From the human T2T-CHM13v2.0 reference genome, Homo sapiens, in the NCBI RefSeq assembly GCF_009914755.1, contig NC_060941.1: a DNA stretch of 64,000 bases. One strand, 5' to 3'. The stretch's first letter is position 1. Each line of letters begins with the position of its first letter. Positions 48,597-51,500 of this stretch are shown in pieces. The translations under genes were made by a program, and so were the position numbers. The notes beneath the pieces were generated by a model. The model did not search any database. It had not been told where the DNA came from and saw only the letters and a program-made list of their open reading frames with translations.

Positions 48597-51500
48597 TCAG
48601 AACCGGCCCCCTGGGCAGGGCACACAAATGGGGCGGGCGCTGCAGTTTGTGCGGGCTGCACTAGGACCGCAGGAGGCCGCAGGAAGACAGGGAAGGCATG
48701 ACTTGGAGGGTGAGTAGTCAGGTGCACATGGGTTACAGGGGAGCCTAGAAAAAAGAAAACAAATTACTGTGATTTTCCAGTTGCTGTTTGCAGTAACTCA
48801 AAGTAGATCCTAGACTATGCAAACTGGGAAGCACCCTAAAAACCACCTTGATCCTGCCCCCTTGTTTTACCAAAAGGGAAACAGGCCCTGAGAGGAAAGG
48901 GGGCTTGCTGGAGTCACGTGATGAGTTTTCAGGAAGACCAGAACTAAGAGAACAGAACTCCAGACTCCGAATGCCAGGCTCTTTCTAGGCACCATGCTGT
49001 CTTCCCAGAACTTGGTAGATTGCAGTGAGAAGACAAGAGCACATGCAGTGATACTCACTTGCTGTCCTCACTCTCCAGCAGGCCCCGGTACGTGTTGATC
49101 TCACACTCCAGCCGGGCCCGGACGTCCAGCAGCACCTGGTACTCCTGGTTCTGCCGCTCCAGGTCAGCCCGGATCTCGGCCAGCTGGGCCTCCACGTTGG
49201 TGATCATGCACTGCATCTGGGCCAGCTGGGAGCTATAGCGGGCCTCCGTCTCTGCCAGGGTGGATTCCAAAGCATCTCTCTGTGAGGGCAAGAGTTGTGT
49301 AGGGAGGAAAAAGGCTAGAGGTCAGAGAAGGAGCAAGGAAGGAATCTTCCTTGGAGCTATAGCGGGCCTCCGTCTCTGCCAGGGTGGATTCCAAAGCATC
49401 TCTCTGTGAGGTCAAGAGTTGTGTAGGGAGGAAAAAGGCTAGAGGTCAGAGAAGGAGCAAGGAAGGAATCTGGGTCTCAGTGAGGCCTCAGAATCCAAGA
49501 ACAGAAGCTCGGAGAATCAGAGTTTGAGCTAGGATGAACCACAATCAGACATCTCACTTGAGATGAGCTAATTAGCCCCTGTGGCTTCTTTGATCTAGAA
49601 AGTATCTCCCTGTTAGTGTCATCTCTGAGTAACTGATAGTTACTCAGAAGATGTATCTGCTTGCACAAATATAGGACCTACTGCCTGGACATGTCAGTTG
49701 CTACAGGTCTCTTGTCCTTTACCACTGGGGGATTTGTGACTGGAGCTGGTCCCTCATTCCCTCTTTTCTGCATAGAGAACCCCTGGTGCTCAAGAACATG
49801 GACCCCTGGAGTCCGCCTGTGTGGTCAAAGCATGGAAGCTGGGGAGCTTGTGTGCTCCTCGGCTGGGTCCAGAGGCAGCTCCACCCTGCCTTGGGGCTCA
49901 CCATGCTGTGCTGGGCCTGCAGCTCAATCTCCAGGGCGTTGACCGTGCGTCTCAGCTCGATGATCTCTGCCTGGCAGGACTGCAACTGCTCTGAGCTGGA
50001 CACCACCTGCTGGTTCAGCTCCTCACTCTGAAACATACACACACAGAACCTGGTCAGCCACACCAGGGACTTGGCTTCAGAGAGCTACAGAGGCCGGTTA
50101 GAATCATGAGCCAAGAAAGACATTCCCGATTCCCCAGTCCCACTCATTTATTTTATACTGGAGGGCATTGTTGCTCAGAGGACAGCAACCTGCCCAAGTG
50201 GGTCTGTTTTGACCTTGTCAGCAAGGTCAATTGAAGTGGGTCTGTTTTGACCTTGTCAGCAAGGTCAAAACAGAGATGGGACTCAAAGTTAGATTTCTTG
50301 ATTCAGAGCCCCAGGGTCACTTCCATGTGAGCCACCACATACCCCTGTTGCACTGACTGTTTCCAGGTACCTACCTGGGTGTCCAACCAGTCTTCAGCAT
50401 CCCGGCGGTTATTCTCCACCAGGGTTTCATACTGGCACCTCATCTCCTCCAGAACTCGGTTCAGGTCAACAGGTGGGGCAGCGTCCACCTCAACATTGAG
50501 GCGGTCACCAAGTTGGCAGCGCAGTGAGTTCACTTCCTATAGCACAGACCAGGATGAGTACTAATTCCCAGAGGGCTGCCTCCAAGGTTCACCTCCTCCT
50601 CATGTTCACCTCCTCCCCATGCTCACCCCTCCTAATGCTCACCTCCTCCCCATGCTCATCTGCTCCCCATGCCCACCTCCTCCCCATGCTCACCTCCTCT
50701 GCATGCTCACCTGCTCTCTATGCTCACCTGCTCCCCATGCTCACCTCCTCTTCCCTATGCACACCTGCTCCCTCATGTTCACCTCCCCCTATGCTCACCT
50801 CATCCCCATGCTCACCTCCTCCCCATGTTCACCTCCTCCCCCATGCTCACCTGCTGTGCCGTGTTCACCTTTTCCCCCATGCTCACCTCCTCATGGTTCT
50901 TCTTCAGGCAGAGCAGCTCCTCCTTCAGGGACTCCACCTGGGCCTCCAGGTCAGACTTGCACAGGGTCAGGTCATCCAGGATCCTGCGCAGGCCGTTGAT
51001 GTCTGACTCCACCAGCTGCCGCAGGGACACCTCCGTCTCATACCTGCAGGCATAGAACAGGGCACCTGAGTCTGCATTTCCTTTTTGCATCTAAGTCAGG
51101 CCTGCCCTCAGACTGTCCAGGTGCTGTGAGTCCTGCTTTTATGCCCCAATGACAGAGTACAGCCAAAACCCTGAGCTCAGGCATCACCTGTGTCCAGTTC
51201 TAGCAGCCCCCAACCACATGACAAGCAGGACAACTCACTTGGTCCTGAAGTCATCTGCAGCCAATTTGGCATTGTCAATCTCCACCACCAGCCTGGCATT
51301 CTCAGCCTTGCTGCATAGAGTCTGGAGATATAAAGAAGTTATTTCATTGCAAGAAAGGACATTCCACTTGTTGGAGCTCCCTAAAGCTGACAAGGGCTGA
51401 CTCTGGAAGGAGGAAGTCACCCATCCTAGACCTCTGCTACTCCATGTGCATTGGAGTGTTATGGGCAGGCTCTAGGGATCAACTATGGAAAGTCCAGGGT

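What the first reader, a model, noticed from the sequence alone, without database searches (positions are those of the whole stretch)
50588..50895. KRT35 intron 3 is a minisatellite made from its own splice donor
Seen: the unit on the gene strand is CATGGGGAGGAG|GTGAGC, a copy of the exon-3 end CATGAGGAG|GTGAGC. About 17 extra units fill about 300 of 350 intron nt and nine keep GTGAG. The copy at 50851 (CAG|GTGAGC, closer to consensus than the real GAG|GTGAGC) is 36 nt away and in frame, and would insert [12 protein letters not shown] near the end of coil 1B; most distal donors bring frameshifts or stops. Interspersed G-runs are hnRNP H/F and G-quadruplex candidates that might silence them. 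Inference: copy number may tune productive splicing.
Basis: partly seen in the sequence, partly recalled or inferred. Interest (0 to 1): 0.75.

Follow-up and report, generated by a model that had tools for sequence, protein, structure and literature searches.

The report
KRT35 intron minisatellite repeating its splice donor
Most of intron 3 of the human hair keratin gene KRT35 is a short tandem repeat that grew out of the exon 3 splice donor and so repeats it many times; this is a real example of an already described kind of repeat, and nothing here shows that it regulates the gene.

Summary
Tandem Repeats Finder gives a 17-nt unit in 17.6 copies at 50589-50892 (79% matches, score 349). The array starts 6 nt inside exon 3 and fills about 298 of the 350 intron nt.

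- **Pseudo-donors:** Nine pseudo-donors keep GTGAG. Five are 11-mer-identical to the real donor and three (CAG|GTGAGC) pair better with U1.
- **Reading frame:** Only the +18, +36 and +54 donors stay in frame without a stop. The +36 donor would insert [12 protein letters not shown] seven residues before the end of a solved K10 coil-1B chain.
- **Origin:** Only 1 of 10 type I hair keratin paralogs (KRT35) has the array. KRT32 shares the exon end and GTGAG, so the boundary is older than the array.
- **Known class:** Minisatellites whose first unit spans an exon-intron border are described for F7, IFI6, CBS, LMNB2 and PDGF (PMC1557585). In F7 only the most upstream donor is used.
- **G-runs and G4:** The G-quadruplex case is weak. 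The real donor carries the same G-run at +9 as the copies, so local G-runs cannot tell them apart.
- **Untested:** Tuning of splicing by copy number. No RNA or population data were available.

Verdict: a new member of a known kind, of modest interest.

The parts
50589..50892 (-). 17-nt minisatellite of 18 units; gene-strand consensus GTGAGCATGGGGAGGAG. It starts 6 nt inside exon 3.
   Evidence: TRF period 17, 17.6 copies, 79% matches, score 349. Unit parse. The 9-mer GGTGAGCAT occurs 10 times against 0.75 expected.
50887..51043 (-). KRT35 exon 3, ending ...AAGAAGAACCATGAGGAG in phase 0. It contains no GGG run.
   Evidence: Hub annotation. Sequence. The CDS rebuilds to 455 aa with NHEE at residues 234-237. 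Zero G-runs.
50879..50889 (-). Authentic donor GAG|GTGAGCAT (GT at 50886-50885), followed by GGGGG at +9.
   Evidence: (U1 duplex -9.7 kcal/mol).
50843..50853 (-). Pseudo-donor CAG|GTGAGCAT (GT at 50850-50849), +36 nt and in frame. Its use would insert [12 protein letters not shown].
   Evidence: 7 of 9 consensus matches; -11.1 kcal/mol.
50621..50815 (-). Eight further GTGAG pseudo-donors, with the G of GT at 50815, 50798, 50744, 50727, 50710, 50693, 50642 and 50626. All lead to a premature stop.
50537..50588 (-). The 52-nt non-repeat tail of intron 3, holding the branch-point-like CTCAT (A at -19, read by eye), a modest pyrimidine tract and the acceptor ...CTATAG.
   Evidence: Sequence. The branch point is my reading against the recalled yUnAy consensus and comes from no tool result.
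50375..50536 (-). KRT35 exon 4, starting GAAGTGAAC (E-V-N).
   Evidence: Hub annotation.

Best explanation
This is a degenerate 17-nt minisatellite that arose by repeated tandem duplication or slippage of the segment spanning the exon 3 / intron 3 border of KRT35. That segment, GGAGGTGAGCA, lies one mismatch from a minisatellite core motif I recall from memory. The array therefore repeats the donor 17 times and now makes up about 85% of the intron. It belongs to the described class of boundary-spanning minisatellites (F7 IVS7, IFI6, CBS IVS13, LMNB2, PDGF).

Shown: the anatomy, its restriction to KRT35 among the paralogs, and the predicted coding outcome of each donor.

Inferred:
- The array is most likely a neutral passenger.
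- The spliceosome commits to the first donor after exon 3, as was shown experimentally for F7.
- G-run polarity may help. All 15 G-runs lie downstream of the real donor, where G-runs are known to enhance splice-site use. Any pseudo-donor would place at least one G-run inside its extended exon.
- Leakage to donors beyond +54 yields transcripts with a premature stop more than 500 nt before the last junction, which should be degraded by NMD.
- Leakage to +36 would add 12 residues to one chain of the coiled coil and is probably rare.
For: - Array and chance control.
- The first unit spans the border. The last 13 exon nt match a late unit 12 of 13 with one gap, and 14 of 2000 shuffles score as well.
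- Only KRT35 of 10 paralogs (9 genes and KRT41P) has an array in intron 3. KRT32 shares the exon end and GTGAG, and KRT34 the exon end.
- Similar G-rich arrays occur elsewhere in the same genome: 41 matches, including a chr4 16-mer in 72 copies and a chr1 19-mer in 61 copies. This core is therefore expansion-prone in general.
- The core 11-mer with up to 1 mismatch matches 12 times in the window, 6 of them in the array or border, against 2.23 expected.
- RefSeq lists one transcript, which uses the most upstream donor (hub table).
- In F7 minigenes, pseudo-sites with consensus values up to 91 were never used. Only perfect CAG/gtgagt sites competed (PMC1557585, sections read).
- G-run polarity: 0 in exon 3, 15 in intron 3 at 4.29 per 100 nt, against 1.13-2.05 in the other KRT35 introns.
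- No RNA structure beyond shuffles (z = 0.16).
- Stop positions.
Against: - Three pseudo-donors pair better with U1 than the real donor, and better than 22 of the 24 annotated donors of the four keratin genes in the window. Silence is therefore not a given.
- In IFI6 and CBS the first two pseudo-sites are used (PMC1557585 introduction).
- The donor-like core of the unit is better kept than the rest. It shows 11 deviations in 180 cells at -2..+8, against 15 in 72 at -6..-3 (Fisher p = 0.001). GT survives in 17 of 18 units. That could mean constraint. The units are related by descent, though, so the test overstates significance.
- I had no RNA-seq, no other human assemblies and no other mammals. 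Neutrality, donor usage and the age of the array are all inferred.
Confidence: 0.65

Rival explanations
1. The pseudo-donors are decoys that divert some transcripts into NMD or into a 12-residue insertion isoform. G-runs bound by hnRNP H/F, or G-quadruplexes, hold them down, and the number of units tunes productive KRT35 output.
For: - Nine GTGAG pseudo-donors, three of them stronger than the real one.
- The +36 site is in frame, and distal sites give a premature stop.
- IFI6 and CBS use their first two pseudo-sites. A CBS paper title links its 31-bp VNTR to reduced enzyme activity. I saw only the reference list of PMC1557585 for this.
Against: - RefSeq has one transcript (hub table).
- F7 minigenes show exclusive use of the first donor unless a pseudo-site is a perfect consensus. 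The KRT35 +36 site is not perfect, with C at +6.
- The real donor has the same G-run at +9.
- No canonical G4 motif.
- Units are only 79% alike and vary in length. By inference that argues for a rather stable array with little copy-number variation to tune anything.
- The peptide appears in 0 papers, but supplements and proteome files were not searched.
Confidence: 0.12
2. The array is a working intronic splicing enhancer. Its many G-runs and U1-binding cores help define a short, G-rich intron that has a modest pyrimidine tract. They reinforce the upstream donor of a very highly expressed gene.
For: - G-run density is 4.29 per 100 nt, 2-4 times that of the other KRT35 introns.
- Intronic G-runs downstream of 5' splice sites enhance splicing of small introns, and G triplets in alpha-globin intron 2 help border recognition (PMC1802585, passages).
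- The donor-like core is better conserved than the rest of the unit.
- The pyrimidine tract looks weaker than in the paralogs (sequences, read by eye).
Against: - Nine paralogs splice the same intron without any array.
- The conservation test is confounded by shared descent of the units.
- There is no experimental or comparative evidence for KRT35.
Confidence: 0.15
3. The effect is at the DNA level. A G-rich non-template strand forms R-loops or G4 DNA during heavy transcription, which pauses polymerase or promotes recombination and instability.
For: Gene-strand GC skew is +0.65 over 50550-50849, the strongest in the gene. G is 47% and C 11%. There are 14 G-runs of 3 or more within the array.
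Against: - No canonical G4 motif with loops up to 12 nt.
- No match to the recalled PRDM9 13-mer in the array (0 of the 5 window matches).
- This rests purely on composition, and no functional data were available.
Confidence: 0.05

Closest known systems
F7 intron 7 37-bp VNTR (Borensztajn et al. 2006, PMC1557585; abstract, introduction passages, and sections 9 and 18 read)
   Same: The first monomer spans the exon-intron border, so the donor is repeated in the intron. Only the most upstream donor is used normally. The pseudo-sites are functional if the real one is lost.
   Different: F7 has 5-9 identical 37-bp units in a longer intron, and its pseudo-sites are exact copies. KRT35 has 18 diverged units of 16-20 nt (79% matches) filling about 85% of a 350-nt intron. 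Three of its pseudo-sites are better than the real one. Polymorphism and usage are not known for KRT35.
IFI6 (6-16) intron 2 minisatellite (Turri et al. 1995; known here only through PMC1557585's introduction and reference list, since the paper itself was not held)
   Same: The authentic donor is followed by many pseudo-sites (25). In-frame proximal pseudo-sites exist.
   Different: [quoted passage not shown] By my recollection its unit is 12 nt, so every copy is in frame. KRT35's 17-nt unit puts most copies out of frame.
LMNB2 repeated element (de Stanchina et al. 1997; title and one sentence seen in PMC1557585)
   Same: [quoted passage not shown] Only the authentic donor is used.
   Different: The LMNB2 unit is about 100 bp in 10-15 copies, against 17 nt in 18 copies here.
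CBS intron 13 31-bp VNTR (Yang 2000 and Lievers 2001; titles seen in PMC1557585's reference list)
   Same: The VNTR sits at an exon/intron border, with 15-20 repeats. It is the precedent for copy number mattering.
   Different: In CBS two pseudo-sites are used and the repeat number is associated with enzyme activity. Nothing of the kind is known for KRT35.

Membership tests
Boundary-spanning minisatellite that reiterates a 5' splice site (F7/IFI6/CBS/LMNB2/PDGF type) | Head-to-tail array of units of about 10-100 bp | tested here: met
   Period 17, 17.6 copies, score 349
Boundary-spanning minisatellite that reiterates a 5' splice site (F7/IFI6/CBS/LMNB2/PDGF type) | First unit spans the exon-intron border | tested here: met
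   The array runs to 50892 and exon 3 ends at 50887. The exon tail matches a unit 12 of 13 with one gap, and 14 of 2000 shuffles score as well.
Boundary-spanning minisatellite that reiterates a 5' splice site (F7/IFI6/CBS/LMNB2/PDGF type) | Donor sequence repeated in the intron | tested here: met
   Nine GTGAG copies. Five 11-mers are identical to the real donor and three are stronger.
Boundary-spanning minisatellite that reiterates a 5' splice site (F7/IFI6/CBS/LMNB2/PDGF type) | Copy-number polymorphism (VNTR) in the population | not testable with these tools
   Only one human assembly was held.
Boundary-spanning minisatellite that reiterates a 5' splice site (F7/IFI6/CBS/LMNB2/PDGF type) | Known splicing pattern of the pseudo-sites | not testable with these tools
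   No RNA data. RefSeq lists 1 transcript (hub table).
G-rich minisatellites of the Jeffreys core type (core recalled from memory) | Unit contains a GGAGGTGGGCA-like core | tested here: met
   Six matches with up to 1 mismatch in the array or border (one exact, at 50670-50680), out of 12 in the window; 2.23 expected.
RNA/DNA G-quadruplex-forming sequence | Four runs of 3 or more G with short loops (up to 7, or up to 12) | tested here: not met
   0 motifs with loops up to 7 or up to 12; 2 with loops up to 15; 6 two-tetrad candidates. G4Hunter array mean is 1.13, and 35% of 25-nt windows across the intron exceed 1.2.
Small G-rich introns with G-triplet enhancers (McCullough and Berget type; known here through PMC1802585) | Short intron with many G triplets downstream of the donor | tested here: met
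   350-nt intron with 15 runs of 3 or more G, 4.29 per 100 nt.
Small G-rich introns with G-triplet enhancers (McCullough and Berget type; known here through PMC1802585) | G triplets shown to enhance splicing or set intron borders | not testable with these tools
   This needs minigene mutagenesis.

The most novel reading that the evidence does not exclude
The array is kept because it works. It would be a pad of repeated U1-binding cores and G-runs that drives fast definition of a tiny intron in a very highly expressed hair gene. Its pseudo-donors would leak in a way that depends on array length, so array length would set the share of productive KRT35 mRNA. A minor isoform with 12 extra residues at the end of coil 1B would reach the hair shaft.
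Probability: 0.08. Interest if true: 0.6.

Novelty: new member of a known kind. Interest (0 to 1): 0.3.

Why it matters
If follicle RNA confirms that pseudo-donors stronger than the real one stay silent, KRT35 intron 3 would be a natural test bed for how the first of many donors is chosen. It offers 17 pseudo-donors, three of them better than the real one, inside 350 nt. It would sit alongside the F7 model. If the +36 site is used, one chain of the hair keratin coiled coil would gain 12 residues, which is not a whole number of heptads. That might matter for filament assembly or for protein-based hair typing. As it stands, this is an annotation-level curiosity with no demonstrated effect.

Tried and rejected
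- **RNA structure hiding the pseudo-donors:** rejected. MFE is -72.1 kcal/mol against -72.66 +/- 3.5 for shuffles (z = 0.16).
- **Canonical G-quadruplexes:** none found with loops up to 12 nt.
- **PRDM9 13-mer (recalled motif):** 5 matches in the window, none in the array.
- **Coding on the opposite strand:** ORFs of 126-150 aa run through the array on the + strand. They are low-complexity readings of a C-rich repeat, and I give them no weight.
- **Exon similarity upstream of -6 taken alone:** not above chance (824 of 2000 shuffles).
- **Literature.** No searchable paper describes this array, but supplements and subscription journals were not covered.
  - KRT35 + VNTR: 0 papers.
  - KRT35 + tandem repeat: 5 papers, none on this by title or abstract.
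  - minisatellite + hair keratin: 1 unrelated paper.
  - hHa5 + intron: 1 unrelated paper.
  - KRT35 + alternative splicing + hair: 10 papers, none on human exon 3 by title or abstract.
  - KRT35 + intron 3: 2 unrelated papers.
  - The peptide: 0 papers.
- **Not available:** Turri 1995 and McCullough and Berget 1997 were not held.
- **Shapiro-Senapathy consensus values:** not computed, because the table was not at hand. I used U1 duplex energy and consensus matches instead.

Full report
**What is there.** On the gene (minus) strand, exon 3 of KRT35 ends ...AAGAAGAACCATGAGGAG. Intron 3 starts GTGAGCATGGGGG. Tandem Repeats Finder reports a single array at 50589-50892: period 17, 17.6 copies, 79% matches, 4% indels, score 349. 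The array runs 6 nt into exon 3.

Splitting at the GTG..C anchors gives 18 units, counting the one that holds the real donor. Eleven units are 17 nt, four are 18, two are 16 and one is 20. The first 83 intron nt also show a 36-nt two-unit period. The array takes about 298 of the 350 intron nt. That leaves a 52-nt tail with the branch-point region and the acceptor.

The 9-mer GGTGAGCAT occurs 10 times in the 64-kb window, all within 50619-50887. Chance expects 0.75, and 0 of 100 shuffles reach 10.

**The repeated donors.** Nine later units keep GTGAG.
- Five are identical to the real donor over 11 nt (GAGGUGAGCAU). Their duplex with the recalled U1 5' end is -9.7 kcal/mol.
- Three are CAGGUGAGCAU at -11.1 kcal/mol, located at 50850, 50727 and 50710.
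- One is GGGGUGAGCAU at -9.3 kcal/mol.
- Five units have GTGAAC, at about -7 kcal/mol.

By the same measure, 13 of the 24 annotated donors of KRT38, KRT32, KRT35 and KRT36 are weaker than -9.7, and only 2 are stronger than -11.1. On sequence alone the copies are credible donors.

**Coding consequences.** Rebuilding the CDS gives the 455-residue protein, with NHEE at residues 234-237. Of 16 pseudo-donor positions tested:
- +18, +36 and +54 give in-frame insertions: [18 protein letters not shown] and [18 protein letters not shown].
- The other 13 reach a stop after 261-262 residues, 502-728 nt before the last exon junction. By the usual 50-55-nt rule (established knowledge) these would be NMD targets.

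The 52 residues of exon 3 align to residues 46-97 of a 104-residue keratin 10 coil-1B crystal chain (6e2j_B, E = 5.2e-19). The insertion point is therefore seven residues from the end of that chain. Twelve residues is not a whole number of heptads. My inference is that such an isoform would be out of register with its type II partner.

**Where the array came from.** I located exons 3 and 4 of ten type I hair keratin paralogs in 164 kb (nine genes and KRT41P) and ran TRF on each intron 3.
- Only KRT35 has the array. The other paralogs have nothing scoring above 70.
- KRT32 has the identical AACCATGAGGAG|GTGAG. KRT34 shares the exon end, and KRT36 has AATCACGAGGAG|GTGAG.
- The last 13 exon nt match the penultimate unit 12 of 13 with one gap (14 of 2000 shuffles do as well). 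The part upstream of -6 taken alone is not above chance (824 of 2000).

The same kind of G-rich unit forms arrays elsewhere in this genome. There are 41 matches at E up to 0.001. They include a 16-mer in 72 copies on chr4, whose reverse complement reads CAGGGGAGGAGGTGAG, and a 19-mer in 61 copies on chr1. The border itself (GGAGGTGAGCA) is one mismatch from a minisatellite core that I recall from memory. Six of the 12 such matches in the window lie in the array, against 2.23 expected. The simplest reading is that this exon end plus donor happened to be an expansion-prone sequence.

**What is known already.** Borensztajn et al. 2006 (PMC1557585) describe exactly this arrangement as a class. I read the abstract, introduction passages, sections 9 and 18, and part of the reference list.
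- These are minisatellites whose first monomer spans an exon-intron boundary, so the donor is repeated.
- In LMNB2, PDGF and F7, only the authentic donor is used.
- In F7 minigenes, pseudo-sites improved to a consensus value of 91 were never used. Only perfect CAG/gtgagt sites competed.

I found no paper describing the KRT35 array in seven searches. Supplements and most subscription journals were not covered.

**How it most likely works.** Shown: the anatomy and the predicted outcomes. Inferred: that the array is a passenger. RefSeq lists one KRT35 transcript, and it uses the first donor (hub table). I take the F7 result and exon definition as the likely reason: the first adequate donor after exon 3 is committed.

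The real donor has the same GGGGG at +9 as most copies, so local context cannot distinguish them. What differs is polarity. Exon 3 has no GGG run. Intron 3 has 15, at 4.29 per 100 nt against 1.13-2.05 in the other KRT35 introns. Intronic G-runs downstream of a donor are reported to enhance splice-site selection in small introns (PMC1802585, passages). Any pseudo-donor would carry at least one G-run inside its extended exon. The +36 site is the least protected, with one run upstream and 14 downstream.

G-quadruplexes are a weak candidate. There is no motif with loops up to 12 nt, and the G4Hunter array mean is 1.13. RNA folding is no stronger than in shuffles.

**Against my reading.**
- Three copies are stronger than the real donor.
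- IFI6 and CBS show that proximal copies can be used.
- The donor-like core of the unit is better kept than the rest. Positions -2..+8 show 11 deviations in 180 cells, against 15 in 72 at -6..-3 (Fisher p = 0.001). GT survives in 17 of 18 units.
- That last pattern would fit a working enhancer or U1 pad. But the units share descent, so the cells are not independent.
- I had no RNA data, no second human genome and no other mammal.

**Verdict.** The feature is real, and it is correctly described as derived from its own donor. It is a new member of a known kind. The regulatory inference is open and, on the F7 precedent, more likely wrong than right.

Noticed in passing
window 49229-49471 (-): A 124-bp tandem duplication (2.0 copies, 99% matches) repeats the intron 5 acceptor and the first 51 nt of KRT35 exon 6. 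Apart from the junction bases, the copies differ at one base (49412, at -9 of the upstream acceptor copy). Using the upstream acceptor at 49403 would add 124 nt, shift the frame and stop at codon 390, 177 nt before the last junction. KRT35 in this assembly therefore repeats a donor and also an acceptor. I could not check whether this is polymorphic.
   Followed up: partly
window 50196-50268: A perfect 38-bp tandem repeat (1.9 copies, 100% matches) in KRT35 intron 4.
   Followed up: no
L002 (G000:C4:98505403-98508690) and L003 (G000:C1:30499061-30502392): Large G-rich minisatellites whose cores are close to the KRT35 unit. One is a 16-mer in 72 copies (stored consensus CTCACCTCCTCCCCTG). The other is a 19/38-mer in 61/31 copies. 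They are 73-76% identical to the KRT35 array. Their gene context was not examined.
   Followed up: partly
window 50528-50536 and 50592-50620 (-): Exon 4 starts GAAGTGAAC, so the spliced junction reads CATGAGGAG/GAAGTGAAC. The penultimate array unit plus the start of the last reads CATGAGGAGGAGGTGAAC, which differs at one base. I read this by eye. It may be coincidence, since GTGAAC is one transition away from GTGAGC.
   Followed up: no
window 58026-58061: An 18-nt repeat in 2 copies (88% matches) inside the coding part of the last exon of KRT36 (hub annotation).
   Followed up: no
window 50550-50849: The strongest strand asymmetry in the gene: GC skew -0.65 on the + strand, so the non-template strand of KRT35 is G-rich. 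On paper this favours R-loops.
   Followed up: no
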